Source: Candidatus Omnitrophota bacterium
Lineage (GTDB): Bacteria > Omnitrophota > Gorgyraeia > 2-02-FULL-51-18
DNA length: 64,000 bases
Assembly: GCA_016197155.1 (NCBI GenBank)
Contig: JACPWF010000025.1
Coordinates: 28,276 to 92,275 of the forward strand
Reading direction: 5' to 3'
Shown here: positions 1-13,554 of the stretch, one piece after another
How the letters are laid out: every line of letters begins with the position of its first letter
Position numbering within the stretch: the stretch's first letter is position 1
The notes under the pieces: generated by a model
Database searches by the model: none
Seen by the model: the letters and a program-made list of their open reading frames with translations, nothing else
What the model was told of the DNA's origin: nothing
Position numbers and translations under genes: made by a program

Positions 1-678
1 TGCTTTGCGCGCCACAAAATAGATCCCCAAAGGTCCTGGGAACGGCTTGAGCCGCATCTTTTTCAGGGCGCCAGGCTGATAGGCATAAATCTTCCAAGGA
101 TCGGTGTCATGCCGCTCCGTGTACTGAAAAATGTATGAGGTCTCAATTTTGTAACCGTTGGCGGCATAGAATTCGTAAAAAAAAGTGGGTGAATACATGT
201 AAAAGCCATGGTCCACGTGGTTAGTGGAAGGCGCACCATGAATGACGCGCCCTCCGACTTTCAGCAGGCGATGGATGTTCCTCAACGCCGCGGCCTGGTC
301 AAACACGTGTTCCAGAGTCCCGCCGTCCAAGATCACGTCATAAAAGCCATAAAGCCCCTCGGGAACCGGCAGGTTGAGATCAAGCGTATGCGTGGATTGC
401 TCATAATCCGAAACATCCAAACTGTGCACCGTCTTAAAACCCAGCGCCGAAAAAAAAGTCTGGTCGTCCATGCATCCCCTCTCCGCCAGTTCCGGATGAT
501 GGGACTTATCGACAAAGGCGAGCCCGGCCAGTTTCACCCCATGCCAAGCGGCCCATCGGATCAATTCATCCATGTTGAAGTAAACCAGTTGTCTTCCCAG
601 CTCGAGAATGGAGCCGTTGAATGGACTCTTTTGGGCTTCCGATAAAAGCAGGCGGGCCATCCCCCGCGCGATACCCAT
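1..678 (-). CDS. SAM-dependent methyltransferase (class I fold), 3' part; gene continues past window start
   Basis: Minus-strand frame read by hand from ATG ~678: MGIARGMARLLLSEAQKSPFNGSILELG...LDLNLPVPEGLYGFYDVILDGGTLEHVFD...LLKVGGRVIHGAPS; motif-I-like ILELG and motif-II-like DVILDGG...LEHV. Not in ORF track because it runs off the window edge. The forward ORF 208-645 is its antisense. Confidence 0.5.
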   Translation of the reverse strand, partial: MGIARGMARLLLSEAQKSPFNGSILELGRQLVYFNMDELIRWAAWHGVKLAGLAFVDKSHHPELAERGCMDDQTFFSALGFKTVHSLDVSDYEQSTHTLDLNLPVPEGLYGFYDVILDGGTLEHVFDQAAALRNIHRLLKVGGRVIHGAPSTNHVDHGFYMYSPTFFYEFYAANGYKIETSYIFQYTERHDTDPWKIYAYQPGALKKMRLKPFPGPLGIYFVARKA

Positions 679-2562
679 TCAGGATATGATCGCCGGTGAA
701 GACTGCCGAACCTGGTCCGCATTGATCGCATCCTTTCGAAAATGGCCTTGTATCTTCCAATATTCGAAAAATGGGCCGCGACTATCCAAAAGTTCGTCGA
801 GGGTCCCTTGCTCCACCACTTGTCCGTTTTCAATCACAACGATCTTATCCGCGTCGGCAATAGTCGAAAGCCGGTGAGCAATTACAATCGCTGTTCGACC
901 TTTGATGCTTTCCGCGATCGCGCTTTGAACTCGTTTCTCCGTCTTTGCATCCATCGCGCTTGTAGCCTCGTCCAATATCAGGATATCCGCGCCCTTTAAG
1001 AGCGCCCGGGCAATCATGACCCGCTGTCTTTCACCACCCGACAGCAAAACCCCCCTGTCTCCCATGAGTGACTCTAGTCCCAACGGCAAGCGCTCAACCA
1101 CCTTCCCAAGCTCGGCCATCCTGATGACTCTTTGAATTTCGTCCTCTGAGATCCCTCTGTCCAGGCCATAACAAAGATTATTCCGAAGCGTGTCATTGAA
1201 AAACATCGGTTCTTGGGCCACAAAGGCGACACGGTCCATGAGAGAACGCCGGCTGAAATCCCGTACGTCTTTGCCGTCCAAAAAAATACTGCCGGGCGGG
1301 CATTCATAAAAACGCATGAGAAGATGAGCAACCGTCGTCTTCCCCGCTCCGGTCGATCCAACAATCGCTGTCGTCTGCCCCTTTTTCAAAGACAGGCTCA
1401 GGTTGCGCAATACGGGAACGTCCGGCAAATAGCCGAAGTTGAGATTCCTGATTTCGATGCTCTCACGCAGAGATTGAAAGGTTTTTGTGCCTTCTGAAAT
1501 GTAGTATTTTTTCTCTTCATTCATGATATAGCGAATATAAACTAGTGTGCCCTCCGCACGGGCCACGGAAATGTTAAATTGTGTGAGAGCCCCGAAAAGC
1601 GGGATGGTTCTCATCGCTACCAAAAAAAAGACAAGATGGGAGGAAACGTTTCGGTGCCCGGAATCCGAAGAAAACTGCATCATGAGAAACGCCACAAATC
1701 CAAGCAAGGCAATTCTGGACAACTCTTGAATGGGCGCAATCAGCAACTCCTTTTTCTTCGCTTCATGATCAAGAAGGATTTGTTTGTCGCTCAATTCCGT
1801 CAGACGGCTCACCTCATCTTTTTCACAAGCATAGGCTTTAACCAGTCCGATAGCTGAAACGACGTTAAACACTCGGAGAGAAAAATCAAGATACGATGTC
1901 TCCTGGGAAAGCGAAGACTCTTTGAGCTGCTGGATCAGCCGCCCAAAGAAAAAATGGTGCACGGGGAAAGTAATCACAAGAAAGAGCGTGAGTTTCCAGG
2001 AAATCCAACACATGAAAAAAAGATAGGCGGCCAGGAGCATCACCTGGCCGAGAAATCGCCGCAGGCTGCCCAGTTGGCCAGTGATGGTTTCGGATCCCCT
2101 GATCATCGTCTTGCTGATGTCACTCACGGCAATACCATCATAAAATTGTTTTCCAAAGGCCAGACACCTGCCAATGATGAGTTTCCGGACGTTGCGGTCC
2201 ACAATTTTGCTTTGTTGATCCATGTTGAGGCTCGAGAAATAAACTAGAAAATTTTTGACAACAAGCGAAATAACGATCGTGGACAAAAGCAGGACAAGAT
2301 AAGAGGCGGGGCTGGAAAATACGCTTGGGAAAAATTTCTGGACGTGTGAAATCAGCCCCAACTTGTCATGGACCGTCGTAAAATTCCCCTCGATAAGTCC
2401 GCGCAGGAATTTGATCAAAAGAGCCATTCCCAACAGATTAAATACGACCGAGAGCGCCGTGCAACCAATGGCTAGAAAGAAATGAATTGGGACTATGCCC
2501 ATGCGGCGGAAGAAATCAACTAGCTCCCGAATTTGAGTCAACGAATTGGATTTACCTTCCAT
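679..2562 (-). CDS. ABC transporter, fused permease/ATP-binding subunit (MsbA-like exporter)
   Basis: 627-aa ORF: N-terminal multi-TM region; Walker A GSTGAGKTT, signature LSGGERQR, Walker B ILILDEAT, H-loop IAHRLST. Confidence 0.85.
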   Translation of the reverse strand: MEGKSNSLTQIRELVDFFRRMGIVPIHFFLAIGCTALSVVFNLLGMALLIKFLRGLIEGNFTTVHDKLGLISHVQKFFPSVFSSPASYLVLLLSTIVISLVVKNFLVYFSSLNMDQQSKIVDRNVRKLIIGRCLAFGKQFYDGIAVSDISKTMIRGSETITGQLGSLRRFLGQVMLLAAYLFFMCWISWKLTLFLVITFPVHHFFFGRLIQQLKESSLSQETSYLDFSLRVFNVVSAIGLVKAYACEKDEVSRLTELSDKQILLDHEAKKKELLIAPIQELSRIALLGFVAFLMMQFSSDSGHRNVSSHLVFFLVAMRTIPLFGALTQFNISVARAEGTLVYIRYIMNEEKKYYISEGTKTFQSLRESIEIRNLNFGYLPDVPVLRNLSLSLKKGQTTAIVGSTGAGKTTVAHLLMRFYECPPGSIFLDGKDVRDFSRRSLMDRVAFVAQEPMFFNDTLRNNLCYGLDRGISEDEIQRVIRMAELGKVVERLPLGLESLMGDRGVLLSGGERQRVMIARALLKGADILILDEATSAMDAKTEKRVQSAIAESIKGRTAIVIAHRLSTIADADKIVVIENGQVVEQGTLDELLDSRGPFFEYWKIQGHFRKDAINADQVRQSSPAIIS

Positions 2563-3259
2563 TCTTTTTTACTCCCACGCCAACCGCCATTAAATAATGG
2601 GCCATCGGATAAAAACCGGTGTGCACAATTTCATCGTTCATCGAGAAAACGAACACATTGTGAAAACACCGTGTCAAAAGTTTTCTCAAACCCTCCGAAT
2701 TCTTCAGATTCACGTGCGCGATCCGACTGCGGGGGCTGGCATACTTGCGAGCTTCCTTGTTGGGAGTGCCCAGAATCAAAATTCCTTGAGGTGCGAGCGA
2801 TTTACAAATATTTCTCACAAAATGCCTTTCCAAAACCCTCGGAATATGCTCGATCACATCCAATGAATACGCCGCATCGAATTTTCGACCTGTCACCCGG
2901 TTTTTTGTAATATCAAGCACCGAAAAACGGCATTTTTTGATCCCCTCATGCCACAAACGATCCTGCGCATCGTGGATCACAAACGGCTCAAGATCTACAC
3001 CATGGACAAAACCAACTGTTTGGAGCATTACCGGGATGCCTATGGCATCGCCGCAGCCCACTTCCAGCACGCGCACGCAACCCGCGAGCATCTTGGCACA
3101 AAACTTGTATCGTGCCAGCAGAAACCCCAGATGCTTTGGATCGCTTCGCCAGATGTTACTGCTCCACGGCCCCAGGTGTGCGGCACCTCTTTGCCGATAG
3201 TCGTCAAGCTGACTATCCTGGGCCAGATGCTGTTTCTGTTTCGCGTCGATCCGGGTCAT
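2552..3259 (-). CDS. class I SAM-dependent methyltransferase
   Basis: Motif I VLEVGCGDAIG; ~235 aa. Start assigned to internal Met (MTRIDAK) giving an ATGA start/stop overlap with panB at 3256-3259. Confidence 0.7.
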   Translation of the reverse strand: MTRIDAKQKQHLAQDSQLDDYRQRGAAHLGPWSSNIWRSDPKHLGFLLARYKFCAKMLAGCVRVLEVGCGDAIGIPVMLQTVGFVHGVDLEPFVIHDAQDRLWHEGIKKCRFSVLDITKNRVTGRKFDAAYSLDVIEHIPRVLERHFVRNICKSLAPQGILILGTPNKEARKYASPRSRIAHVNLKNSEGLRKLLTRCFHNVFVFSMNDEIVHTGFYPMAHYLMAVGVGVKKNGR

Positions 3260-4146
3260 TTTGGAGATTCGACGACGTATTTCCACCGGGGATCCGCCAA
3301 CATTCTCTCGAGTTCTTCGTCTTTCAATTCATAAAAATGCTCGCTTGAGGGAAATTTTCCTGTACGCACTTCGGATGCGTACTGTCTCAGCGACTGCTCA
3401 ATCACCCTGCCCACCTCGCAATAGCGCTTGACAAATTTGGACTTGAATTCAAAAAACATGCCTATCAAATCATGCAGAATCACCAGCTGACCGTCCACCT
3501 GATCGCCGGCGCCGATGCCGTAAACCGGGATTTTTAAATTTTTGGCGACATAGCCGGCCGATTCCCGCGGCATCGCCTCGAGCAATAAAAGCCGGCAACC
3601 GGCCTCTTGCAGAGCGATCGCCTGCTCCAATATCCTGTCGGTTTCTTTCTTTGTCTTTCCCTGCACACGGTAGCCGCTTAGCATGGCCCGCGTTTGAGGT
3701 GTCAGACCCAGATGGCTCATCACGACAATGCCGGCGTCGGCAATCGCTTTGACCCGGTCCACCATGGCGCCTTCGACCTTCACCGCATCGCAGCCCCCTT
3801 CCTGCAAAAACCGGCCCGCATTGCGCACGGCAATTTCGTTGGAGACCTGGTAGGACATGAAAGGCATGTCCCCGATCTGCATGGCCTTTTTGTTGGCCCG
3901 CCAAACACCTCGGCAATGGCTGATCATGTCCTCCATCGTGACGGCAATGGTCGTCTTGTAGCCAAGTGTCGTCATCCCTAGCGAATCTCCCACCAGCACG
4001 ATATCCACTCCGGCGCGGTCGGCCAACAACGCCTCCGGATAAGTGTACGCGGTAACGGCCACCACTTTTTCTTTTTCTTCTTTTTTTCTCTCAAGCGTCA
4101 CCAGCGTTGTGCGCGGCCTGTCCATCGGACCGGAATTTTCTAGCAT
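3256..4146 (-). CDS. panB: 3-methyl-2-oxobutanoate hydroxymethyltransferase (ketopantoate hydroxymethyltransferase)
   Basis: Strong similarity to PanB along its length: VTAYTYPEALLADRAGVDIVLVGDSLGMT..., HLGLTPQ, IGAGDQVDGQLVILHD. Confidence 0.8.
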   Translation of the reverse strand: MLENSGPMDRPRTTLVTLERKKEEKEKVVAVTAYTYPEALLADRAGVDIVLVGDSLGMTTLGYKTTIAVTMEDMISHCRGVWRANKKAMQIGDMPFMSYQVSNEIAVRNAGRFLQEGGCDAVKVEGAMVDRVKAIADAGIVVMSHLGLTPQTRAMLSGYRVQGKTKKETDRILEQAIALQEAGCRLLLLEAMPRESAGYVAKNLKIPVYGIGAGDQVDGQLVILHDLIGMFFEFKSKFVKRYCEVGRVIEQSLRQYASEVRTGKFPSSEHFYELKDEELERMLADPRWKYVVESPK

Positions 4147-5954
4147 AGCGTTTTACTCCCTTTTAGTCTTTCTTTCTCCACTAATGTTGAGAACGCCTTT
4201 TCAATCTCCTTTAATTCCTCGGATCCGAGCTTGGGGTCCAAATCTTCGAGCGAGCCTCCAAATTTCAGCATCGGGACAATCCTTTGGTTTGGGAATATTT
4301 CCACGTTGCACAAGACGGGCCCCTGGCTTTGAAGGGCCTCACGGATCTGCCGACTCATTTTGGCGTGATCGCAGATATTCACGGTTTTCATGCCAAACGC
4401 CTGGCCGCTTTTCAAAAAATCGGGAAAGGCCAGACCGGTCGGTTCATCCACTCCTTCATACCGGGAATCCAGCCAGGTGTCCAGCGTCTGTTTTTGAATG
4501 CCGTGCCCATGGTTATTGAAAATGAAAACCGTGACAGGCAGGTGATGCCGGACCAGTGTCGCCAGTTCAGCCAGGCACATCATGATCCCGCCGTCACCGA
4601 TGATGCACAGGACGCGGCGATGACCCGCCGCCAGCGCCGCACCGATGCTCGCCGGCAGGGAATACCCCATCGGCGAATGGTTCCAGGCCGAAAAAAGACG
4701 CTGGCCGGGCTTGACGCGCCAGGCCTGCATCGTCCAGCTTAAATTTCCCCCGGCGTCGGTGATCACGATATCGTTTTCGCCGGATTGCTTCGAAAGCTCC
4801 TCCACAAACAGGTAGGCGTCCACACTGTCCGTTTTTTCAGACAGCCCGTCTGGTGCAATTGGAAACCGGCGCCGTAAGAGGCGGATAAAATCCAGCCAAT
4901 GATCGCGTTCCGAAGCCCGCACGGAAAAATCAACGGAAGAACAGTTTTGAAAAAATTCCCGGATACCGCTTTGAATCGGCAGATCCACCTTCACGCCGCA
5001 AGGGGCAAACTTTGCAAATTCTTCGGCGTCGATATCCACCACCGCCTTGCGTGCGTCCGGGGCGAAAAGCTCCTGCCTGCCGCCCGTGATCATTTGAGAG
5101 AGCCGGGTTCCCACCGCCAAAATCAGATCCGCCCTCTGGACCGTGAAGTTGCCCGCGCGCGGTCCGCACACGCCCAGCCCTCCCGCGCTGATCGGGTGGT
5201 CATACGGTATCAAATCGGCCCCACCCCATGTCAATAGGACCGGGATCCCTAATCGGTTGGCAAAATCAATCGCTTCTCTCTCAGCCTTTGCCAAACGGAT
5301 ACCCGCGCCATAAATGAGGACCGGACGCCGGCTTTGCTTCACCAAGGCGCATAATTTCTCCGGCCAATCGAATAACGGGGTTAGGCCCTGGGTCGAAGGC
5401 CCCGGCGCCTCAAACCGCTCCAATTTTTCAGGATCCACATCCACCCGCTGAACATCATCCGGAATGTCCAAAAGCACGGGGCCCGGACGGCCCGAACGCG
5501 CCAGCCAAAGCGCTTTTTCAAGCTCGTAGCGGATCAACGCCGGATCCTCAACCAAAACGGCATATTTGGTGACCGGTTTGAAAATGGAAACCACGTCCGT
5601 CTCCTGGAAACCTTTTTGCCTCAAACACCCGTTTTTCTTCAGACGGAAACGGGCCACCTGGCCGGTGAGAAAAAGTGAAGGGATAGAATCAAAATAAGCG
5701 CAACAGACGCCCGTGAGAAGGTTGGTGGCGCCCGGGCCGCTGGTCGTGATGGCCACGCCGAGGTTACCCGTGATTCGTGAATAGGCGTCCGCGGCCATCG
5801 CGGCGGCCTGTTCGTGTTGCGGACAAATGTACCGGAGGGAAGGGTGCCTGGCCACCGAATCCACCAAATGAATCGCGGCCCCGCCGGAAATCAAGAACAC
5901 GTGCCTGACTCCCTGACGCGCGATGAAATCGGCAACGTAGTCGGACAGTTTCAT
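4140..5954 (-). CDS. thiamine-diphosphate-dependent enzyme, acetolactate synthase large-subunit family (specific reaction unknown)
   Basis: ALS/IlvB-like N-terminal Pyr domain (GVRHVFLISGGAAIHLVD, TSGPGATNLLTG), SGRPGPVLLDIP, C-terminal TPP motif IIGDGG...N. Start placed at MKLSDYVADF (ATGA overlap with SDR stop at 5951-5954). Confidence 0.8.
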   Translation of the reverse strand: MKLSDYVADFIARQGVRHVFLISGGAAIHLVDSVARHPSLRYICPQHEQAAAMAADAYSRITGNLGVAITTSGPGATNLLTGVCCAYFDSIPSLFLTGQVARFRLKKNGCLRQKGFQETDVVSIFKPVTKYAVLVEDPALIRYELEKALWLARSGRPGPVLLDIPDDVQRVDVDPEKLERFEAPGPSTQGLTPLFDWPEKLCALVKQSRRPVLIYGAGIRLAKAEREAIDFANRLGIPVLLTWGGADLIPYDHPISAGGLGVCGPRAGNFTVQRADLILAVGTRLSQMITGGRQELFAPDARKAVVDIDAEEFAKFAPCGVKVDLPIQSGIREFFQNCSSVDFSVRASERDHWLDFIRLLRRRFPIAPDGLSEKTDSVDAYLFVEELSKQSGENDIVITDAGGNLSWTMQAWRVKPGQRLFSAWNHSPMGYSLPASIGAALAAGHRRVLCIIGDGGIMMCLAELATLVRHHLPVTVFIFNNHGHGIQKQTLDTWLDSRYEGVDEPTGLAFPDFLKSGQAFGMKTVNICDHAKMSRQIREALQSQGPVLCNVEIFPNQRIVPMLKFGGSLEDLDPKLGSEELKEIEKAFSTLVEKERLKGSKTLC

Positions 5955-6739
5955 CGCAATCCCGGCTCCACAAAAAAATGCCGGCTTTGGCCGCCATCGA
6001 CTGGAATAATAGCTCCTTGGCAAAATTCAGCCAAGTCCGAACATAGAAACACAACCATCGCCGCAACGTTTTCAGGCGTTCCAAAACGGCCAAGCGGGCA
6101 ACGTTCGGATAGATATTTTTTGACGTGCGCTGGACGTTCTCTAACTGCCTTGTCCCAATAACCCCCCTCGGTGAATACCGCCCCCGGCAAAACCGCGGAC
6201 ATCACGACTCCGTCCTTGGCCAGCACGCGCCCCATGCTACGCGAGTAAGCCGCCAACGCCGCCTTCGAAGTACAATAAGTCACGGGGCCGTTATTTTCCA
6301 TCGAAGAAGTTGAGCCAATATGAACGATACGACCCCATTTTTTCTTTTTCATTGCCGGAATAAAAATCTGATCCAGTTCAATTGCGATTTCCAGATTGCA
6401 ACGTAGCACCCTCCGCCAATCGCTCATCGAGCAAAAAGGATCGGTGATCTCGAGCGTCGATCCAAGATTATGCACCACCATATCCAAAGCCCCAAAATTT
6501 TTCTTAAGCCGGTGCGACAAAATGGCCGGCGCCTTGTCGGACATAAGATCCAGGGATTCACCGTAATGACCCTCTCCATACCGGCTCATTTCGTGGACTA
6601 GTGAGTGCACATCAGATTTTGTACGGGAAAATACGGAAACCTTAACCCCTTCCCTCGCCAAAGCGATCGCAATCCCGCGGCCGATCCCGCGGCCGGCGCC
6701 CGTCACAAGAGCAAGTTTTCCTTTAATTCCCAATTCCAT
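5951..6739 (-). CDS. short-chain dehydrogenase/reductase (SDR) family oxidoreductase
   Basis: N-terminal Rossmann motif LVTGAGRGIGRGIA; 262 aa; typical SDR length. Confidence 0.8.
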   Translation of the reverse strand: MELGIKGKLALVTGAGRGIGRGIAIALAREGVKVSVFSRTKSDVHSLVHEMSRYGEGHYGESLDLMSDKAPAILSHRLKKNFGALDMVVHNLGSTLEITDPFCSMSDWRRVLRCNLEIAIELDQIFIPAMKKKKWGRIVHIGSTSSMENNGPVTYCTSKAALAAYSRSMGRVLAKDGVVMSAVLPGAVFTEGGYWDKAVRERPAHVKKYLSERCPLGRFGTPENVAAMVVFLCSDLAEFCQGAIIPVDGGQSRHFFVEPGLR

Positions 6740-6756
6740 TATTCACCTTTGGACCA

Positions 6757-7731
6757 TCAGGCGTAAACATTTGATACATCCTGGTTTTCCCCGGCAAGCC
6801 ACTGATACTCTTGTTTCCAATGCAAATTCCACCTCGCGTCAGCCTGGCCGGGCGCGGCGGACCTGCTCAAGAAGTGCGCGGCGATATCCATGAGCCGGGG
6901 ATCTTTTTCCTGAGGAGAAAGTCCGCTGAAAACCCGGGAAGCTCCGAGTCTATCCCCCAACCAGGCCAGATTGATCCCATTGCACAAATTCAAAGACTTT
7001 TCGATCGCGTCAAAAAGCCGCTTGGCCGTCGGTGAGGCGTTTCGGACCTGAGACGCGGGGACAAAACGGAAATTAAAACTCAATCGCCTCCGCGACCGAG
7101 GTTTGGTCGCGCCATGAACCGTTTGAGGATCAAACACGAGCGCGTCGCCCTGTTTCAATGCGTACTGAACGATCTCGCTTTTTAGAAGCGGGTCGACTTC
7201 ATGTGCCTTACTTAGATATTCGTTTAGATTGTAGCGGTTTTTCTCCCCTTTCAAGGGAGCCGGGACAACATCCGAGACGTGCGTGGAGAAACCGCAGAGA
7301 CCGCCTGTTGACTCATTGATCTCTTCGAGCGGGACCCATATTGAAAACCCAAAAACACCATAGGCAGTGTCGTAGTGAGGTTCGGTGTATAGGAAAGCCT
7401 TCTCATGTTCTTTGGACAAGAAAACACCTGGCTGACAAAACCTCAGATAAAACAAAGGGCAAAGCATAAAATCCTCCCGGCTTCCATGGAAATCCCTCAG
7501 CTGAGGCGCCAAATAGTCCTTGATCCTCAGCAGGATCGCCGTTGACGCAAAACGAAACGTGACAATCCTCGAAACAACGGATTCTTTCTGGTGAATGCCG
7601 TTAAACTCCTCGCGTGTCCGGTTGCTGAAGTAATCCTTGTAAACGTCCTCCGAGGTCTTGTCCGCCGCATGGCGCAGCTCTTCCACAAAACTCTGCGGAA
7701 ACACACCTTTCAATAATCGCATTTGGCCCAT
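6757..7731 (-). CDS. PhyH-like Fe(II)/2-oxoglutarate-dependent dioxygenase (putative hydroxylase)
   Basis: HxD triad candidate (EPHYDTAYG), distal His (VHGATKP) and RRRLSFNFRF tail resemble the phytanoyl-CoA dioxygenase family. Start set at the internal ATG at 7731, which overlaps the upstream stop (TGATG). Confidence 0.5.
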   Translation of the reverse strand: MGQMRLLKGVFPQSFVEELRHAADKTSEDVYKDYFSNRTREEFNGIHQKESVVSRIVTFRFASTAILLRIKDYLAPQLRDFHGSREDFMLCPLFYLRFCQPGVFLSKEHEKAFLYTEPHYDTAYGVFGFSIWVPLEEINESTGGLCGFSTHVSDVVPAPLKGEKNRYNLNEYLSKAHEVDPLLKSEIVQYALKQGDALVFDPQTVHGATKPRSRRRLSFNFRFVPASQVRNASPTAKRLFDAIEKSLNLCNGINLAWLGDRLGASRVFSGLSPQEKDPRLMDIAAHFLSRSAAPGQADARWNLHWKQEYQWLAGENQDVSNVYA

Positions 7732-8969
7732 CACCACACCCCCGCGGGTAAAAAAACGGATTTGGGTCCGAGACCAAGCAGACGCCGCATGATAGGGCGA
7801 GCGCTGTCTAACGCCGTGATCAGGATATTGGCCGACCCCCATAAAATGCCCGGCCAGGGTTTGCGTATTTTCACCGCCAACGCCGGATAACACAAACCAT
7901 CCCGCCCGGGATCATCGTCCAGAATACATTCCAAAAAACCCAAGTCGCTCTTTAGATGATAGGCCAATGTCGGAACCATTTGTGCGCCCCCGTAGCCGTA
8001 CAGCGGCCCGCCCACATTTTGAACAAAATCCACGGTTTGCTCCATTCTTTGTTTGAACAAATCATGACGATGTCTGACCTGAGCGGCACTGGGAACCGGG
8101 GAGTTCGGCGGGAATACCCCTCCCGAACCGCTTTTTCCCTTCTCGAAAGCGATCAGCAAAGTGCCGTTCCAATATTGATGATTAAAAGTGTGGGCGACGT
8201 AACGCCCCCCTACGGCCTCAATCAAGCGGCAAAAGGATGCGACGCTGAAATATTGTAAATGCTGATGAAAGACCTGATCGAACCGCGAAGCGGCCAAAAG
8301 GGTCTCAAACGCCGGCACCTCGATCACAAAGAGCGCCCGGTCTGAGGCATATTTCACCCATGCCTCCAGAACCTTCCGCGGATCGGCCATGTGTTCAAAC
8401 GTGTGCGCGGAAATCACAAGATCCGGCCGATCACCCATTTCGTTCTTCAAATCCACCTCGTCGGCAAATTTCCCCAAGACGCGGATCTTCCCTTCTTTTA
8501 AAGGCCTGTCTTTCCAGATGGGATCGATACCGACCAGCCGCTTCGCTTTTGTTTGAATTTTTTTCAAAAGATACAAATCATTGCAGCCGATTTCGGCAAC
8601 CGTATGGAACGTTCTTCTTGCGAGAAATCCCTTTAGAAATGAATAAAAGAAATCGTTGCCCTGCCTGGCGATCGCGCTACGCGAGCTTCGATGGGAGTAC
8701 GTCTGGACATACAAATATTCGGGATCAATCACGTTTGAGAGTTGCGCATGCCCGCAATCTTCGCAGAGCGCTAGCATCTGGTCAAAAACCGGATAACATT
8801 CGGGACGGGGCCGGTCCACGTAAATGCCAGTCAGAGGGAATTGGGGAAGATCCAATACGGGTTCCAGATTCGCGCCGTGGCATACCGAACAACCGTTGTT
8901 ACGTAAAAACCGGATACGCGAAGCCGCTGGCGCCGTGCCTAAAGGGGGATCAGTTTGAACAGTTATCAT
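7731..8969 (-). CDS. C-methyltransferase of the TylCIII/EryBIII-like family (zinc-ribbon + SAM MTase + C-terminal C-MT domain)
   Basis: N-terminal CxxC...CxxC (CSVCHG...CEDCGHAQLSNVIDPEYLY), motif I VAEIGCNDLYLL, 412 aa, typical of NDP-hexose 3-C-methyltransferases. Confidence 0.6.
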   Translation of the reverse strand: MITVQTDPPLGTAPAASRIRFLRNNGCSVCHGANLEPVLDLPQFPLTGIYVDRPRPECYPVFDQMLALCEDCGHAQLSNVIDPEYLYVQTYSHRSSRSAIARQGNDFFYSFLKGFLARRTFHTVAEIGCNDLYLLKKIQTKAKRLVGIDPIWKDRPLKEGKIRVLGKFADEVDLKNEMGDRPDLVISAHTFEHMADPRKVLEAWVKYASDRALFVIEVPAFETLLAASRFDQVFHQHLQYFSVASFCRLIEAVGGRYVAHTFNHQYWNGTLLIAFEKGKSGSGGVFPPNSPVPSAAQVRHRHDLFKQRMEQTVDFVQNVGGPLYGYGGAQMVPTLAYHLKSDLGFLECILDDDPGRDGLCYPALAVKIRKPWPGILWGSANILITALDSARPIMRRLLGLGPKSVFLPAGVW

Positions 8970-9714
8970 AGATCGTTACCGAGGCCTTTTTTTGCAACAG
9001 ATGGTTGTATTCGGCCTGCCAGAGTTCGCCAAATTTCACATGCTTCCATTTATCAAACCACGGGCCGCCGCGCGTGAAATGAATGGCCTTGGGAATTTCG
9101 TCCGGAACGGCCCTGCTCCAACCCTCAAGCCAATTCCAAGTCTCCGGAAGCGCGCCGATCTCGGAATCTTTGAGCCATTGGAAACGGTGTAAAAAAGCGC
9201 CTGTTTCACGATTCACGGCCTCCGGGGTCAAAACACCGTTGGATGGGTAGGCACAATTCCAAAGCACGAGGCTGGACCAATTTTTCCGCGGATAAACCGT
9301 TTGAAGCGCGCCGTCCATTTTCGTCCGCTCCGGCGGACGATGGTCATGCTGGACACACATCACGGCGCACCGCGGATCGGCCATGGCGAAAAGCTCGGCG
9401 ACATCGGCCGTGAACAAAAAATCGCAGTCCACAAACAATGCCCAACCCCGGTAGTCGGCCAAAAAAGGCGTCAAAAAGCGGGTATACGTGAACTCCGTCG
9501 AGGCCAGAGGATCCTTGGACCGCGCGTATAGTCCCCCATGCCGAAGTTCTTCCTGTTTGAGAGGGGTGACATCAAGCGGCCGGCTCGAGTACCTGCGAAG
9601 AGACGCCAGACAAACGTCGTAGGCCACTTCCTCGCGGCTGTCCCAACCGATAAAAATTCTCAGTGCCTTCTTCATCAATCCGTCCATGATATAACAGGAT
9701 CGATAAACCTGCAA
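8950..9714 (-). CDS. GT-A fold glycosyltransferase, GT8-like
   Basis: Rossmann-like N-terminus (MKKALRIFIGWD), DxD candidate FVDCDFLF, C-terminal IHFTRGGPW resembling the GT8 HxxGxxKPW motif. True start may be the internal Met at ~9675. Confidence 0.5.
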   Translation of the reverse strand: MQVYRSCYIMDGLMKKALRIFIGWDSREEVAYDVCLASLRRYSSRPLDVTPLKQEELRHGGLYARSKDPLASTEFTYTRFLTPFLADYRGWALFVDCDFLFTADVAELFAMADPRCAVMCVQHDHRPPERTKMDGALQTVYPRKNWSSLVLWNCAYPSNGVLTPEAVNRETGAFLHRFQWLKDSEIGALPETWNWLEGWSRAVPDEIPKAIHFTRGGPWFDKWKHVKFGELWQAEYNHLLQKKASVTIYDNCSN

Positions 9715-10779
9715 TCAGCTTCTCAAAACCTTGAGTATCCTTTGCGCGGCGTCTCCCGAAATTACCGTTCGACTAACCATTTGTCTTGAATTTTCAAAAA
9801 GCGGCTGATTGTCAGGGGCCTTTTTAGCCAGATGAACGAAATGAAACCAATCCTCCGTCTCCCGGATCAAAAAAAGCGGCTCGTAGCGGGATGTGTCCAC
9901 GTCGCCGGCAACCACCGCCACCGGCACTCCGGCCCGGGCCGCGTCCAAAGCGACCGTTGAAGGAGTCGTGATGATCGCGTCCGACCCGCGAAGAAAAGCG
10001 GAAAGTCCGTAACGCCCCCAAACCGGCGCATGCGGATCGGCTAAAATCAGGTTCTTTAGACCGGAAAATACTTCACGGCCGTGCCGCGTAAACCACCTTT
10101 GGTCCGGATGAGGCCGCACAAAAAAGGTGGTGTCGGGAAGGCGCCTGGCGGTTTCTTTCAAATCCGCCATGAAACGCCTCCGGTACTCGTCGGAATAGCG
10201 ATGCCAATGCAAATTCTCAAAAACTGTGACGGTGAAAGGCCGCCCCTCGACTTTACCCAGGGGTATTTCGGAAAGCCTGAGTTCACGCGGATACCCCACC
10301 GGAATACATCTTCCCTTAACTTCGGACGGGATTTGGGGATCTAGGGAGGACAACTCCCCCCAAACAAAAATCTTTTGCGAAGCAAATCGCACCGTTCCCG
10401 GCGGATCTTTCTCATCAAAATAAGTCAGGCCGACCTGCTCAAAGCCATGCTGGACCGTGAAGGTTTTAATTCCAAGACGATTGGCCCGTCGCGTCAACGC
10501 GTAAGCCGCCGCGTGCGGCCGCAGACTGGATTCCGAAGCAGTAACCAGCGCGTCAAAGCCTCGCAGGCCCGGTCCTAGCCCCAAAATGATTTTCCATCTG
10601 GGAATCACCTGAAAACGAATGGGTAGGGACTGGAAATCGGAAGCTGTGGCGGCAAACCGGCGAAACAGCCTGTCCGTGAAATAGACGGACGCTTCAAACC
10701 CCCTGCCCACACCGCCTTTCACAATGGGCAACAAAAGTTCCGTGTCCTGCACATAATCCAGAAAAAAAAGAATCTTCAC
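9715..10779 (-). CDS. putative GT-B fold glycosyltransferase / capsule-type sugar transferase
   Basis: C-terminal TPSTVALDAARAGVPV resembles GT-B nucleotide-sugar binding helix. GTG start at 10779 forms a GTGA overlap with the upstream stop; the ORF-track N-terminal 57 aa overlap the upstream gene and are discounted. Confidence 0.4.
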   Translation of the reverse strand: MKILFFLDYVQDTELLLPIVKGGVGRGFEASVYFTDRLFRRFAATASDFQSLPIRFQVIPRWKIILGLGPGLRGFDALVTASESSLRPHAAAYALTRRANRLGIKTFTVQHGFEQVGLTYFDEKDPPGTVRFASQKIFVWGELSSLDPQIPSEVKGRCIPVGYPRELRLSEIPLGKVEGRPFTVTVFENLHWHRYSDEYRRRFMADLKETARRLPDTTFFVRPHPDQRWFTRHGREVFSGLKNLILADPHAPVWGRYGLSAFLRGSDAIITTPSTVALDAARAGVPVAVVAGDVDTSRYEPLFLIRETEDWFHFVHLAKKAPDNQPLFENSRQMVSRTVISGDAAQRILKVLRS

Positions 10780-12083
10780 GCGTCCCTCACGAACGGCGCG
10801 CGCGTCAAAAAAAAGTAGGTCAGGACGGGAAAACTCTGGATCATCAACCGGTCCAACGACACGGCGAGCTGAGTCGGCAAATTCAAAGCTGTCAGACAAT
10901 AGACACCCGCGTATCCGGCGTTCAGAAAAAAAACGGTCAGGGGTATCCAAATTTTATCTCTACCAAATATCTCCCGCCGGAAGAAAACCGCCAGCACACC
11001 GAAAACGGGCCAGGCATACGCCCAGGAATTTTCTTTGCGGATTTCCGCGGCAAAAAAGGAAAAAACCGTTCCCAGCCTTGACAAAATCTCTTCGGCCGTC
11101 AACCGACTGATCGCTTCCGGCCGCAGCATGTGATTCGGCGAAAACGTGCTCAGTTTAAAAAATACTGTGAACGCCAAAAATAAAAGTCCCCCCTTCGCCA
11201 TCGCGAAGAGAAACCGCCTCTCCGTAAACAGAGCCAGCGAGAGGCAAAAGGCCGCAAAAAACAAAAGCCCTTCGTTTTTCACAAAACCGGACATCCCTGC
11301 AAACGCGCCCGATACCATCGCCCAACGCGCGTCCTCGCCACAAAGTGCCATGTCCATCGAAACGATGGCAGCCGTAAAAAAATAGGCGACCGGAATATCC
11401 GCGTACTGCGACCCGCCCATTCCAATGAAATGCGGAATCGAAATGAGAAAGAGACCGGATACCCACGCCGAACGCCTTCCATAACGGGCGGCGGCCGCCA
11501 TTACCAAACCGACCAGGCACAAGGTCATCATGAAAGCCAACAGAAAAGCGGCCGCGGCCGTCTCCCGTCCCGCAAAAAGCCATGCCCAAACCAAGGCCAG
11601 CGGATAAAAGAGCGGATAGTCCGGATGAGAAAAACGTAAACCCGGCGCGAAGATCGCCCGCCAGTCCGCGGCATGATAAATGAAACGTGCCTTTATTTTC
11701 CAAATGGCCCAGACGTCGAGGCCCGTCCCGAACGGCGATTTCAGCATGACCGCGAGCAACAACAAAGCCGCCGCCGAAAGAATGGCGAAAAAAACCACGC
11801 CTTCTTTCATTGCCGCAGGTTCCCGTTTTGTATTGCGATATGCCCCCCACAGCATGACCAGCAAAAAAAGATGCGCGGCAATCGCGAGTTCTCTGGAAAT
11901 TCGGTGAAAGAAATACAGATCGAAATATAAAAGGAAGCTGGATATAAAAAGTCCCGCTCCCGGAGCGAGAAAAAGAAGGAGAGATCCCGGACAACGGGAA
12001 TTTTTCAGAAAAACCCGAAGGGCACAGAAACCGATCGCGCCTGAAACCAGATACGACATCATCGCTAAAAAACCGGCTGTCAT
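10776..12083 (-). CDS. polytopic inner-membrane protein, GT-C-like glycosyltransferase or O-antigen polymerase/ligase-like
   Basis: 435 aa, ~10-12 hydrophobic helices throughout, aromatic-rich loops. No soluble domain recognised. Confidence 0.4.
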   Translation of the reverse strand: MTAGFLAMMSYLVSGAIGFCALRVFLKNSRCPGSLLLFLAPGAGLFISSFLLYFDLYFFHRISRELAIAAHLFLLVMLWGAYRNTKREPAAMKEGVVFFAILSAAALLLLAVMLKSPFGTGLDVWAIWKIKARFIYHAADWRAIFAPGLRFSHPDYPLFYPLALVWAWLFAGRETAAAAFLLAFMMTLCLVGLVMAAAARYGRRSAWVSGLFLISIPHFIGMGGSQYADIPVAYFFTAAIVSMDMALCGEDARWAMVSGAFAGMSGFVKNEGLLFFAAFCLSLALFTERRFLFAMAKGGLLFLAFTVFFKLSTFSPNHMLRPEAISRLTAEEILSRLGTVFSFFAAEIRKENSWAYAWPVFGVLAVFFRREIFGRDKIWIPLTVFFLNAGYAGVYCLTALNLPTQLAVSLDRLMIQSFPVLTYFFLTRAPFVRDA

Positions 12084-12505
12084 GTGAAGCGCCTGTCTTT
12101 CCGTGCGATCGCCAAACCACCTGACTGAAAAAGGACCTCAAGGGAATTGTCCCTGCAATGGGACTCGAGTGATTCCGGCGTTTCGAAATCGAGAACGAAA
12201 TGATCGGCATGCGCGTTATTGTCTGAGATGAGGTGAGGAGCCATCGCGTATTGAAAGTCGTAATACCGCTCCGCCGCTTTCCCGGGAATCCCGGAGACGT
12301 AGGAAAAACGCGAAAAATCAAAGGGTGACGAAGAAACGAAGGAAAGAATTTTGTCTTTGAGAATCCGGTAACGCGAATCCACGGCCTCATGCCGCGAAAC
12401 CAGCGCCTGAACAGATCGGCAGGCAATCTTGATCTGCCTTATGAAACCAAAGGCTATCGACAAAATCAGGACAAAGCAGAGAAGGAATTTACGAAAACGA
12501 GGCAC
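12080..12505 (-). CDS. hypothetical membrane-anchored protein
   Basis: 141-aa ORF with N-terminal hydrophobic helix (FLLCFVLILSIAFGFI). Alternative (GTG) start; 4-nt overlap with downstream gene start. Confidence 0.4.
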   Translation of the reverse strand: MPRFRKFLLCFVLILSIAFGFIRQIKIACRSVQALVSRHEAVDSRYRILKDKILSFVSSSPFDFSRFSYVSGIPGKAAERYYDFQYAMAPHLISDNNAHADHFVLDFETPESLESHCRDNSLEVLFQSGGLAIARKDRRFT

Positions 12506-12515
12506 TTCGTTACCT

Positions 12516-12553
12516 AAAAAACAAAACCCGGTTCCCTTAGCGGGGAACCGGGT
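12516..12553 (-). terminator. rho-independent terminator downstream of the OM beta-barrel gene
   Basis: Perfect 11-bp stem cccggttcccc/ggggaaccggg with 4-5 nt loop. On the minus strand it is followed by a U-run (forward aaaaaacaaaa at 12516-12526). Confidence 0.45.
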
Positions 12554-12571
12554 CGGAGTTTGAGAATTTAA

Positions 12572-13462: not shown

Positions 13463-13516
13463 CCAATCGTCTCCTTTAATAGTAAGAGTCCCACAAGCAT
13501 GAATCTTTAGTTATGG

Positions 13517-13545
13517 ATTATATAAAATAACTCATTTTTAATCAA
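13517..13545 (-). promoter_or_regulatory. sigma70-type promoter for the OM beta-barrel gene
   Basis: On the minus strand: TTGATT, 17-nt spacer, TATAAT. AAGGAG SD 6 nt before the ATG at 13462. AT-rich UP-like region upstream. Confidence 0.5.
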
Positions 13546-13554
13546 GATTAATTA

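What the first reader, a model, noticed from the sequence alone, without database searches (positions are those of the whole stretch)
3256..6739. PanB + acetolactate-synthase-like TPP enzyme + SDR trio embedded among glycosyltransferases
Seen: panB (3256-4146), a 600-aa IlvB-like TPP enzyme without a small regulatory subunit (4140-5954) and an SDR (5951-6739) are contiguous and start/stop-coupled.

Established: ALS-family enzymes perform TPP carboligation or decarboxylation. PanB transfers a hydroxymethyl group from methylene-THF onto a 2-oxoacid. SDRs reduce ketones.

Inference: together they could assemble a pantoate-like branched hydroxy acid or, by analogy with YerE/YerF in yersiniose biosynthesis, install a carbon branch on a keto-sugar and reduce it. 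Either would be an unusual building block for a surface glycan.
Basis: inference. Interest (0 to 1): 0.7.

Follow-up and report, generated by a model that had tools for sequence, protein, structure and literature searches.

The report
PanB-fed branched-sugar pathway for surface glycan
A dedicated copy of the vitamin-B5 enzyme PanB sits fused in an operon with a YerE-like thiamine enzyme and a reductase, and across dozens of uncultured microbes this pairing recurs inside sugar-modification clusters, suggesting an undescribed way of building carbon-branched sugars for the cell surface.

Summary
On the minus strand, SDR (5951-6739), a 604-aa ThDP enzyme (4140-5954) and PanB (3256-4146) are translationally coupled. 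They lie inside a longer glycan operon (1-12505).

These do not look like housekeeping genes, although I could not search the rest of the genome for a second panB or ilvBN.
- **ThDP enzyme:** it fails every acetolactate-synthase equivalog cut-off. Its best solved relative is JanthE, a characterised YerE-like ketone-accepting carboligase. It lacks the AHAS acceptor residues (Arg377 to Met, Trp574 to Thr).
- **PanB:** it keeps all catalytic residues but belongs to a derived clade, only 39% identical to E. coli PanB. In 36 of 37 informative metagenomic loci a same-strand YerE-like ThDP gene lies immediately next to it, usually among NDP-sugar dehydratase and DegT genes.
- **SDR:** this SDR subfamily lies within 1.5 kb of the ThDP gene in 58 of 80 genomes, with or without PanB.

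Best explanation, from comparative evidence only: this is a variant of the known "aldolase + YerE-like enzyme + reductase" scheme for acyl-branched sugars. PanB replaces the aldolase and makes a 4-hydroxy-2-oxoacid donor (ketopantoate or an analogue). The ThDP enzyme adds it decarboxylatively to a keto-sugar, and the SDR reduces the new ketone. I found no paper describing this pairing.

The parts
3256..4146 (-). PanB-like hydroxymethyltransferase, member of a ThDP-enzyme-linked clade. Proposed maker of the 4-hydroxy-2-oxoacid donor.
   Evidence: PF02548 E 4.5e-99; TIGR00222 290.7 bits, above its cut-off. Asp45, Ser46, Asp84, Lys112, Glu114, His136 and Glu181 (E. coli numbering) are all conserved. 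39% identical to E. coli and M. tuberculosis PanB, but 65-89% to 120 environmental homologues. Has a clade-specific C-terminal extension ending in RWKY.
4140..5954 (-). YerE-like ThDP-dependent carboligase. It has the ALS fold but is not an ALS.
   Evidence: Three TPP domains. TIGR00118 scores 396 bits against a cut-off of 538, and every other ALS equivalog is also below cut-off. Best PDB hit is JanthE 8rph, 340.8 bits. AHAS Arg377 is Met and Trp574 is Thr. Family is monophyletic in 100/100 bootstraps, with JanthE nested among its relatives.
5951..6739 (-). Classical SDR, the proposed YerF-like reductase of the acyl-branch ketone.
   Evidence: adh_short / adh_short_C2. The same SDR subfamily lies within 1.5 kb of the ThDP gene in 58/80 genome loci and directly adjacent on the same strand in 35. 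4-bp ATGA overlap with the ThDP gene.
7731..8969 (-). Homologue of NDP-sugar C-methyltransferases (Zn-binding Methyltransf_13 domain plus a class I MT domain).
   Evidence: Pfam. Its only PDB relatives are NDP-sugar 3-C-methyltransferases: 4rv9 mycarose 3-C-MT, TcaB9 and 5t6b. It co-occurs with the SDR in 9 of the 10 loci that carry a close SDR homologue.
6757..7731 (-). PhyH-like 2OG/Fe(II) oxygenase; role unknown, possibly hydroxylation.
   Evidence: PF05721 E 4e-7; weak TIGR04324 'sporadic carbohydrate cluster 2OG-Fe(II) oxygenase' hit. No PDB relative. Absent from all 160 related loci.
2552..3259 (-). Class I SAM methyltransferase (Methyltransf_23), coupled to PanB.
   Evidence: Pfam. ATGA overlap with the PanB stop. 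Homologues in 19/80 ThDP-family loci, often lying between the SDR and ThDP genes.
679..2562 (-). MsbA/HepA/PglK-like ABC exporter; probable flippase for a lipid-linked glycan.
   Evidence: ABC_membrane + ABC_tran. HepA_fam 439 bits and MsbA 363 bits, both below their equivalog cut-offs.
1..678 (-). 5' part of another class I methyltransferase-like gene that runs off the window. The operon continues beyond position 1.
   Evidence: Six-frame translation shows an open frame starting at the ATG directly after the ABC stop codon, with a methyltransferase-like DGGTLEHV motif. This assignment is by eye only.
8950..9714 (-). 254-aa protein of unknown family with a DxD-like DCD motif; possibly a glycosyltransferase.
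   Evidence: No Pfam, NCBIfam or PDB hit. Assigned to the operon by position only.
9715..10950 (-). Putative glycosyltransferase (DUF6716 / 'surface carbohydrate biosynthesis protein'-like).
   Evidence: Weak hits, all below cut-off: PF20471 22.5 bits, TIGR04396 25.9 bits.
10776..12083 (-). PMT_2 / ArnT-like GT-C membrane glycosyltransferase.
   Evidence: PF13231 27.9 bits against a cut-off of 26.1; polytopic hydrophobic sequence.

Best explanation
The trio is the core of an acyl-branched-sugar pathway. It resembles the YerE/YerF and ErwI/ErwE/ErwF pathways, but a dedicated PanB paralogue supplies the donor instead of an aldolase.

Proposed steps:
1. PanB uses its unchanged Mg2+-enolate chemistry to transfer a hydroxymethyl group from 5,10-methylene-THF to C3 of a 2-oxoacid. 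The default substrate is 2-oxoisovalerate, which gives ketopantoate; 2-oxobutyrate or another 2-oxoacid is possible. The product is a 4-hydroxy-2-oxoacid.
2. The YerE-like ThDP enzyme decarboxylates that acid. It adds the resulting acyl-anion equivalent to the carbonyl of a nucleotide-activated keto-sugar, creating a tertiary alcohol with a hydroxyacyl branch.
3. The SDR reduces the branch ketone.
4. The co-transcribed C-methyltransferase homologue, 2OG oxygenase and methyltransferases tailor the sugar further.
5. The glycosyltransferases and the ABC exporter install the sugar on a lipid-linked surface glycan.

What is shown here: gene identities, catalytic residues, operon coupling, the conserved PanB-ThDP and SDR-ThDP linkages, and the nucleotide-sugar context of homologous loci.

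What is inferred: the order of steps, the identities of donor and acceptor, and the final glycan.
For: - **The ThDP enzyme is YerE-like, not ALS.** It is below every ALS cut-off. JanthE is its best solved relative. JanthE nests among the PanB-linked ThDP enzymes in 100/100 bootstraps. The AHAS acceptor residues are replaced.
- **The precedent exists.** An aldolase makes a gamma-hydroxy-2-oxoacid, which ErwE, MyGE or MMAR_2332 then use as donor, and a reductase follows (PMC9306805). ErwE and MyGE accept 4-hydroxy-2-oxobutanoate.
- **PanB and ThDP genes are linked.** In 36/37 informative metagenome loci with PanB at least 60% identical, a same-strand ThDP gene lies within 600 bp. The same holds for 13/26 of the more distant PanBs. 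The controls that lack a ThDP gene include a panB-panE-panC operon.
- **The linked PanBs form a derived clade** with invariant catalytic residues.
- **The layouts are parallel.** The JanthE locus reads NTP-transferase, 4,6-dehydratase, DegT-like, JanthE, reductase, BphJ-like, BphI-like. The marine locus L119 reads Gmd, DegT-like, an unassigned gene, dehydratase/epimerase, MT, ThDP, PanB, reductase, GT. BphI/J are absent from all 54 PanB-linked loci.
- **The SDR follows the ThDP gene, with or without PanB** (58/80 loci).
- **The same five-gene set recurs across phyla.** C-MT, SDR, ThDP and PanB occur together in Nitrospirales, Patescibacteria and Neomarinimicrobiota, with the MT in the first two.
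- **The window's own operon encodes a homologue of NDP-keto-sugar C-methyltransferases**.
Against: - No biochemical data exist for any member of this PanB clade or this ThDP subfamily.
- The window contains no nucleotidyltransferase or 4,6-dehydratase next to the operon, so the acceptor sugar is not identified here. The operon does run off the window.
- Ketopantoate has a quaternary carbon next to the keto group and would be a bulky donor for a ThDP enzyme.
- Identity to JanthE and PpYerE is only 31-35%, similar to the identity to plant AHAS. The bit-score margin of PpYerE over AHAS is small (276 vs 272).
- PanB is present in only 3 of 80 representative genomes that carry this ThDP subfamily, so it is an accessory, not a core, component.
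- One clade member, L110, sits in a housekeeping context without a ThDP gene.
Confidence: 0.55

Rival explanations
1. The three enzymes build a free branched hydroxy acid, which is then attached to the glycan as an ester or amide substituent and not as a C-branch. Two routes are possible. In one, the ThDP enzyme condenses pyruvate onto the PanB product in an AHAS-like reaction. In the other, PanB plus the SDR make pantoate.
For: PanB passes the panB equivalog cut-off and keeps its whole active site. AHAS-family enzymes naturally use 2-oxoacids as acceptors. No sugar-activating gene is visible in the window.
Against: The SDR tracks the ThDP gene even where PanB is absent (58/80 loci), so it is not a PanB-coupled ketopantoate reductase. 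The AHAS residues that bind the acceptor 2-oxoacid are replaced: Arg377 to Met and Trp574 to Thr (the roles of these residues are from my own knowledge of AHAS mutagenesis). No acyl-activating ligase or acyltransferase is in the operon. Homologous loci are built around NDP-4-keto-sugar genes.
Confidence: 0.15
2. The order is reversed. The ThDP enzyme first installs an acetyl (or other simple acyl) branch on the keto-sugar from pyruvate. PanB then hydroxymethylates the enolisable alpha-hydroxy-ketone branch while it is on the sugar nucleotide.
For: The ThDP subfamily works without PanB in most genomes (77/80), so it must have a common donor such as pyruvate. An alpha-hydroxy-ketone could chelate Mg2+ much as a 2-oxoacid does.
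Against: The residues that hold the substrate carboxylate in E. coli PanB (Ser46, Lys112) and the rest of the pocket are invariant in 53 linked PanBs, apart from a conservative Ser46-to-Thr change in 11 of them. Only two core positions are clade-specific. This argues for an ordinary small 2-oxoacid substrate. In the characterised ErwE system the side chain is built before branching, and pyruvate is rejected.
Confidence: 0.1
3. These are ordinary housekeeping genes for pantothenate and branched-chain amino acid synthesis that happen to lie in a glycan operon.
For: PanB scores above the TIGR00222 equivalog cut-off. I could not check whether the genome has another panB or ilvBN.
Against: The ThDP enzyme is below all ALS equivalog cut-offs, and no ilvN, ilvC, ilvD, panC, panD or panE was found among the window ORFs scanned. 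Canonical PanBs in the control loci sit in panB-panE-panC operons, whereas this clade sits next to YerE-like genes in 36/37 loci. The same module occurs in Patescibacteria (L070), a group with very reduced biosynthetic capacity (established knowledge of the candidate phyla radiation). ATGA-type coupling to an SDR and a methyltransferase has no rationale in pantothenate synthesis.
Confidence: 0.03

Closest known systems
ErwI/ErwJ-ErwE-ErwF (erwiniose, Pectobacterium atrosepticum), with the MMAR_2331/2332 (caryophyllose) and MygI/MyGE/MygF systems: the 'unifying scheme' for acyl-branched sugars (PMC9306805)
   Same: Same logic. A metal-dependent enolate enzyme builds a gamma-hydroxy-2-oxoacid. 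A YerE-like ThDP enzyme transfers it decarboxylatively to an NDP-keto-sugar. An NAD(P)H reductase then reduces the branch ketone. The genes are clustered with glycan genes.
   Different: The donor-building enzyme here is a PanB-type methylene-THF hydroxymethyltransferase, not a BphI/HpcH-type pyruvate aldolase. BphI/J are absent from all 54 PanB-linked loci. The expected side chain therefore carries a C1-derived CH2OH, and a gem-dimethyl group if 2-oxoisovalerate is used. The reductase is a classical SDR. The acceptor sugar is unknown.
JanthE (Janthinobacterium sp. HH01, PDB 8rph), YpYerE and PpYerE (PDB 5ahk): YerE-like ketone-accepting ThDP carboligases
   Same: Best solved relatives: 340 and 276 bits. 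Same three-domain fold, with the catalytic Glu and the GDG motif. JanthE nests within the PanB-linked radiation, and Thr replaces AHAS Trp574 as in JanthE.
   Different: Only 31-35% identical. The window protein has the canonical GDG motif, not JanthE's CDG. JanthE's own locus uses a BphI/BphJ-like pair, not PanB.
Canonical PanB / ketopantoate hydroxymethyltransferase (E. coli 1m3u, M. tuberculosis 1oy0)
   Same: Full-length PF02548, above the TIGR00222 cut-off, all catalytic and metal-binding residues conserved.
   Different: 39% identity. A separate derived clade with a C-terminal extension ending in RWKY and clade-specific Lys64 and Lys235. Linked to a ThDP gene and nucleotide-sugar genes, not to panC/panE.
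Acetohydroxyacid synthase large subunit (IlvB/IlvI/IlvG)
   Same: Same fold and domain order; about 32% identity to plant AHAS.
   Different: Below every equivalog cut-off. No regulatory subunit gene found among the window ORFs scanned. The acceptor-binding Arg and the specificity Trp are replaced. The conserved partners are an SDR and sugar-modifying genes.

Membership tests
PanB / ketopantoate hydroxymethyltransferase (TIGR00222, PF02548) | Full-length match above the curated equivalog cut-off | tested here: met
   TIGR00222 290.7 bits vs 207.55; NF001452 326 vs 272; PF02548 E 4.5e-99 over profile positions 2-258 of 259.
PanB / ketopantoate hydroxymethyltransferase (TIGR00222, PF02548) | Mg2+ ligands and catalytic residues (E. 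coli Asp45, Ser46, Asp84, Lys112, Glu114, His136, Glu181) | tested here: met
   All are conserved in the window protein. They are invariant in 53 ThDP-linked homologues, except that 11 have Thr at Ser46. The residue list is from my own knowledge of the 1m3u structure.
PanB / ketopantoate hydroxymethyltransferase (TIGR00222, PF02548) | Physiological role in pantothenate synthesis (linkage to panC/panD/panE) | tested here: not met
   No pan genes were found among the window ORFs scanned. The clade is linked to a ThDP gene in 36/37 loci, whereas the control PanB L156 sits in a panB-panE-panC operon.
PanB / ketopantoate hydroxymethyltransferase (TIGR00222, PF02548) | Substrate is 2-oxoisovalerate plus 5,10-methylene-THF | not testable with these tools
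   Needs an enzyme assay.
Acetolactate / acetohydroxyacid synthase large subunit | Score above the ALS equivalog cut-offs | tested here: not met
   TIGR00118 396 bits vs 538; all PRK-type ALS models are far below their cut-offs.
Acetolactate / acetohydroxyacid synthase large subunit | Regulatory small subunit (ilvN/ilvH) and ilvC/ilvD linkage | tested here: not met
   None found among the ORFs of the 64-kb window that I scanned; short ORFs were not all scanned. The rest of the genome could not be examined.
Acetolactate / acetohydroxyacid synthase large subunit | Acceptor 2-oxoacid-binding Arg (A. thaliana R377) and specificity Trp (W574) | tested here: not met
   Met and Thr in the window protein. 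Thr is invariant in 21 family members. The roles of these residues are from my own knowledge.
YerE-like ThDP carboligases (sugar-branching) | Closer to characterised YerE-like enzymes than to other ThDP subfamilies | tested here: met
   JanthE 340.8 bits is the top PDB hit, then PpYerE 276.3, then AHAS 272.4. JanthE nests among the PanB-linked ThDP enzymes in 100/100 NJ bootstraps. The margin of PpYerE over AHAS is small.
YerE-like ThDP carboligases (sugar-branching) | Adjacent NAD(P)H reductase (YerF/ErwF role) | tested here: met
   The SDR is coupled by an ATGA overlap and conserved next to the ThDP gene in 58/80 loci. It is a classical SDR; I did not test homology to YerF because no YerF sequence was available.
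YerE-like ThDP carboligases (sugar-branching) | Cluster encodes synthesis of an NDP-keto-sugar acceptor | tested here: inconclusive
   No dehydratase or nucleotidyltransferase is adjacent in the window, and the operon runs off position 1. A sugar C-methyltransferase homologue is present. Homologous loci do carry 4,6-dehydratase, heptose-activation or DegT genes.
YerE-like ThDP carboligases (sugar-branching) | Accepts ketones or keto-sugars as the electrophile | not testable with these tools
   Needs an enzyme assay.
Acyl-branched sugar gene clusters of the 'unifying scheme' (Steitz et al. 2022) | Pyruvate aldolase (BphI/HpcH type) that supplies the functionalised 2-oxoacid | tested here: not met
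   No BphI/BphJ homologue in the window or in any of the 54 PanB-linked loci. HpcH-type aldolases were not searched for, because no query sequence was available. PanB occupies the corresponding place.

The most novel reading that the evidence does not exclude
A large, phylogenetically scattered clade of PanB paralogues exists solely to feed YerE-like ThDP enzymes. It spans marine bacterioplankton, Omnitrophota, Nitrospirales and Patescibacteria. If so, folate-derived C1 units are built into a so far undescribed class of surface sugars carrying hydroxymethyl-bearing, possibly neopentyl-type (gem-dimethyl), C-branches. On this reading, many 'panB' annotations in metagenomes are not evidence of pantothenate synthesis.
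Probability: 0.4. Interest if true: 0.75.

Novelty: new variant of a known kind. Interest (0 to 1): 0.6.

Why it matters
**New chemistry.** It would add a third way of making the side chains of C-branched sugars: methylene-THF hydroxymethylation of a 2-oxoacid, alongside the use of pyruvate directly and aldolase-built donors. It predicts sugar structures that have not been reported.

**Annotation.** Members of this clade pass the panB equivalog threshold. Metabolic reconstructions of uncultured lineages (Omnitrophota, Patescibacteria, marine groups) may therefore wrongly credit them with the first step of pantothenate synthesis, and with an 'acetolactate synthase' as well.

**Biocatalysis.** PanB (KPHMT) and YerE-like enzymes are each already used separately to build quaternary centres and tertiary alcohols. 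A natural pair that may have evolved to work in tandem would be a ready-made two-step cascade.

Tried and rejected
- **Source contig beyond the window.** I tried to fetch it to see the rest of the operon and look for a second panB. Exact-protein look-ups of the ABC exporter and of the NCBI PanB call were not on record. Only a 5.1-kb Logan contig carries the trio.
- **YerE, ErwE and RhopE sequences.** I looked for them in the supplement of PMC9306805, but none is held. Krug et al. 2024 (>200 YerE-like clusters) is also not held. The comparison with YerE-like enzymes therefore rests on JanthE and PpYerE alone.
- **R. palustris homologue.** I tested whether the 52%-identical homologue is the published O-antigen 'RhopE' cluster with an aldolase. 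It is not. It sits in a heptose / E1-alpha-beta cluster next to a flagellin gene.
- **Phage or plasmid origin.** I checked whether the marine PanB-ThDP loci are phage-borne or plasmid-borne. No clade member (at least 60% identity) occurs in either collection.
- **PEP-mutase / phosphonate reading of the PanB-like gene** (same superfamily). Rejected, because the PanB match is full-length and above the equivalog cut-off.
- **Literature.** Searches linking PanB or ketopantoate with YerE, O-antigen or ThDP carboligation found nothing relevant.
- **Not attempted.** Structure prediction and fold search, because the sequence-level assignments were unambiguous.

Full report
**Observation.** The three genes are real and lie at the stated coordinates, all on the minus strand.
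- ORF 3256-4146 is a full-length PanB: PF02548, E 4.5e-99, and TIGR00222 at 290.7 bits against a cut-off of 207.6.
- ORF 4140-5954 (604 aa from its ATG) has the three ThDP-enzyme domains.
- ORF 5951-6739 is a classical SDR.
- The junctions show translational coupling. SDR and ThDP share ATGA. The ThDP stop overlaps the PanB ATG by 7 bp. PanB and the next methyltransferase share ATGA.

**Operon anatomy.** The trio lies inside a longer co-directional operon. In order of transcription:
- a PMT_2 GT-C glycosyltransferase (10776-12083)
- a weak DUF6716-like putative GT (9715-10950)
- a 254-aa orphan (8950-9714)
- a Methyltransf_13 C-methyltransferase homologue (7731-8969)
- a PhyH-like oxygenase (6757-7731)
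- SDR, ThDP enzyme and PanB
- a class I methyltransferase (2552-3259)
- an MsbA/PglK-like ABC exporter (679-2562)
- another methyltransferase-like gene that runs off position 1

The rest of the window, as far as I scanned it with Pfam, is housekeeping: serS, frr, pyrH, tsf, lpxABCDI, bamA, dnaB, glmU, glyA and pur genes. It contains no ilvN/C/D, no panC/D/E and no nucleotide-sugar dehydratase. The source is a Candidatus Omnitrophica MAG.

**The ThDP enzyme is not an acetolactate synthase.**
- It scores 396 bits on TIGR00118 against a cut-off of 538, and it is far below every other ALS equivalog.
- Its best solved relative is 8rph (340.8 bits). This is JanthE, a YerE-like ThDP enzyme that couples 2-oxoacid donors to ketones.
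- Next comes 5ahk at 276 bits. I take this entry to be the PpYerE structure mentioned in the review PMC12247030, from my own knowledge. Plant AHAS follows at 272 bits.
- In an NJ tree rooted on AHAS, the window's subfamily is monophyletic in 100/100 bootstraps. JanthE is never outside the environmental sequences (0/100).
- The two AHAS residues that I know to bind and select the acceptor 2-oxoacid are Met and Thr here (A. thaliana Arg377 and Trp574). Thr is invariant in the subfamily and is also found in JanthE.
- Limits: identity to JanthE and PpYerE is only 31-35%, and the tree has a single outgroup.

**PanB keeps its chemistry but has changed company.**
- All catalytic and metal-binding residues of E. 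coli PanB are conserved. They are invariant in 53 related sequences, apart from Ser46-to-Thr in 11 of them.
- The protein is nevertheless only 39% identical to E. coli or M. tuberculosis PanB. It is 65-89% identical to the best 120 environmental homologues listed.
- These homologues share a C-terminal extension ending in RWKY.

I fetched 80 metagenomic loci with this clade's alignment and scanned them by tblastn.
- PanB at least 60% identical: 36 of 37 informative loci have a same-strand ALS-fold ThDP gene within 600 bp.
- More distant PanBs: 13 of 26 do.
- ThDP-linked PanBs form a derived clade, with unlinked ones basal.
- One unlinked control, L156, is a textbook panB-panE-panC operon.
- The linked ThDP enzymes belong to several YerE-like subclades, so the pairing is not a single recent transfer.

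**The SDR belongs to the ThDP enzyme, not to PanB.** In 80 genome loci of the window's ThDP subfamily, an SDR of the same subfamily lies within 1.5 kb in 58. It is directly adjacent on the same strand in 35. PanB occurs in only 3 of the 80. The 80 loci come from Chlamydiota, Planctomycetota, Omnitrophota, DPANN archaea, the candidate phyla radiation, Rhodopseudomonas and others.

The close SDR homologue co-occurs with the C-methyltransferase homologue in 9 of 10 loci, and PanB appears only in that subset. The set C-MT, SDR, ThDP, PanB recurs in Nitrospirales (L002/L007), Patescibacteria (L070), Neomarinimicrobiota (L035) and metagenome locus L122. The small MT accompanies it in L007 and L070. 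The order ThDP then PanB is kept in all of them.

**Context is nucleotide-sugar modification.**
- Loci of the ThDP subfamily commonly carry the following:

| Gene family | Loci of 80 |
|---|---|
| GDP-mannose-dehydratase-family genes | 42-49 |
| HldE-like kinase/nucleotidyltransferase | 33 |
| GmhA-like isomerase | 11 |
| Zn-dependent alcohol dehydrogenase | 45 |
| E1-alpha / E1-beta pair | 43-46 |

- The marine PanB locus L119 reads Gmd, DegT-like, an unassigned gene, dehydratase/epimerase, MT, ThDP, PanB, extended-SDR reductase, GT.
- A DegT-like gene is present in 32 of 54 PanB-linked loci.
- In the window itself, the only solved relatives of the C-MT homologue are NDP-sugar 3-C-methyltransferases, which act on NDP-keto-sugars.

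**Comparison with what is known.** Steitz et al. (PMC9306805) proposed a common scheme for acyl-branched LPS sugars and supported it with in-vitro assays on substrate analogues. An aldolase (ErwI, MygI or MMAR_2331) builds a gamma-hydroxy-2-oxoacid. A YerE-like enzyme (ErwE, MyGE or MMAR_2332) uses it as donor on CDP-4-keto-3,6-dideoxyglucose. A reductase finishes the branch. ErwE rejects pyruvate and accepts 4-hydroxy-2-oxoacids.

I retrieved JanthE's own locus. It has this layout: NTP-transferase, 4,6-dehydratase, DegT-like, JanthE, reductase, BphJ-like dehydrogenase, BphI-like aldolase. The PanB-linked loci have the same layout with PanB in place of the aldolase pair, and none of the 54 has a BphI/J homologue.

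PanB is mechanistically the same kind of enzyme: an Mg2+-stabilised 2-oxoacid enolate attacks an electrophile. Its product is a 4-hydroxy-2-oxoacid, the class of donor these ThDP enzymes prefer.

**Proposed mechanism.**
1. PanB hydroxymethylates a 2-oxoacid. 2-Oxoisovalerate, giving ketopantoate, is the default, because the pocket is essentially unchanged. One clade member, L110, still sits in a housekeeping context.
2. The ThDP enzyme decarboxylates the product and adds it to an NDP-keto-sugar carbonyl.
3. The SDR reduces the branch ketone.
4. The C-MT homologue, the oxygenase and the methyltransferases tailor the sugar.
5. The GTs and the ABC exporter place it on a lipid-linked glycan. The operon's position beside the lipid A genes hints at LPS.

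Gene identities, residues and linkages are shown here. Substrates, the order of steps and the final product are inferred. I put this at 0.55.

**Rivals.**
- **Free branched acid used as a substituent (0.15).** This is disfavoured by the PanB-independent SDR-ThDP linkage, the replaced AHAS acceptor residues and the absence of an acyl-activating gene.
- **PanB acting after branching, on the sugar-bound acyl group (0.10).** This is disfavoured by the invariant carboxylate-binding pocket.
- **Housekeeping genes (0.03).** This is disfavoured by everything above, but not strictly excluded, because I could not see the rest of the genome.

**Novelty.** The general scheme is known. I found no description of a PanB-type donor-forming enzyme, or of the breadth of this PanB-ThDP pairing, in the searchable literature. 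Krug et al. 2024 surveyed more than 200 YerE-like clusters, but I could not read it. I therefore rate the finding a new variant of a known kind, resting on comparative evidence only.

Noticed in passing
window 1-678 (minus strand): A further class I methyltransferase-like gene starts directly after the ABC exporter's stop codon and runs off the window start. The glycan operon is therefore truncated by the window, and sugar-activation genes may lie just beyond it.
   Followed up: partly
L083 1-17134 (Rhodopseudomonas palustris XCP); also L080, L082: A 52%-identical ThDP enzyme with its adjacent SDR ends a cluster of GmhA-like, two epimerase/dehydratases, E1-alpha/E1-beta, Zn-ADH, HldE-like and NTP-transferase genes. 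An 885-aa flagellin gene (DUF1522) lies about 2.7 kb further on. This looks like a flagellin-glycosylation island making an unknown branched heptose-derived sugar, not the published O-antigen cluster.
   Followed up: partly
L007-L086 (genome loci of the ThDP subfamily): An E1_dh + Transket_pyr pair co-occurs with the YerE-like gene in 43-46 of 80 loci. The pair resembles the alpha-KADH2 sugar-branching enzymes AviB1/B2 and KbDH. A conserved Zn-ADH accompanies it in 45 of 80. Two different ThDP branching systems in one cluster suggests doubly branched or chain-extended sugars.
   Followed up: no
L167 12798-14724 (Janthinobacterium sp. HH01): JanthE's physiological substrates are described as unidentified. 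Its gene is followed by a reductase and a BphJ/BphI-like acetaldehyde dehydrogenase / 4-hydroxy-2-oxovalerate aldolase pair, and preceded by NTP-transferase, 4,6-dehydratase and DegT-like genes. This points to 4-hydroxy-2-oxovalerate plus an NDP-4-keto-deoxyhexose, as for ErwE.
   Followed up: partly
L110 7368-8318: One PanB of the ThDP-linked clade (67% identical to the window's) has no ThDP neighbour. It sits among UbiA, CN-hydrolase and class IV aminotransferase genes. It may be a housekeeping member, or the lineage from which the glycan paralogue was recruited.
   Followed up: partly
window 3256-3330 (C-terminus of PanB) and alignment A2: The ThDP-linked PanBs share a roughly 25-residue C-terminal extension (consensus FYEIKDEELEKLLADxRWKY) that E. 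coli and M. tuberculosis PanB lack, plus clade-specific Lys64 and Lys235. Its role is unknown; it may be a partner contact or an active-site lid.
   Followed up: no
L087-L166 and L119 3976-5385: A DegT/E1-like PLP/PMP enzyme is present in 32 of 54 PanB-linked loci but in only 3 of 77 PanB-free loci of the window's ThDP subfamily. This suggests that most PanB-linked pathways act on a 3-deoxy or amino 4-keto-sugar.
   Followed up: no
window 1-14000 compared with the rest: The glycan operon has lower G+C (0.505-0.563, mostly 0.51-0.53) than most of the window (mostly 0.55-0.60). Its PanB is 85% identical to a Nitrospirales homologue, while the adjacent ThDP enzyme is only 64% identical. Both points are consistent with horizontal acquisition.
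   Followed up: no
window 28017-29309 (minus strand): A single 430-aa ORF carries both an LpxC domain and a FabA/FabZ-like dehydratase domain, within an lpxD ... lpxC-fabZ, lpxA, lpxI gene string. This is a fusion of lipid A and fatty-acid steps.
   Followed up: no
window 60529-63987 (minus strand): An 1152-aa ORF has only a small FBPase-like region near its N-terminus that Pfam recognises (residues about 100-355). The remaining roughly 800 residues are unassigned.
   Followed up: no
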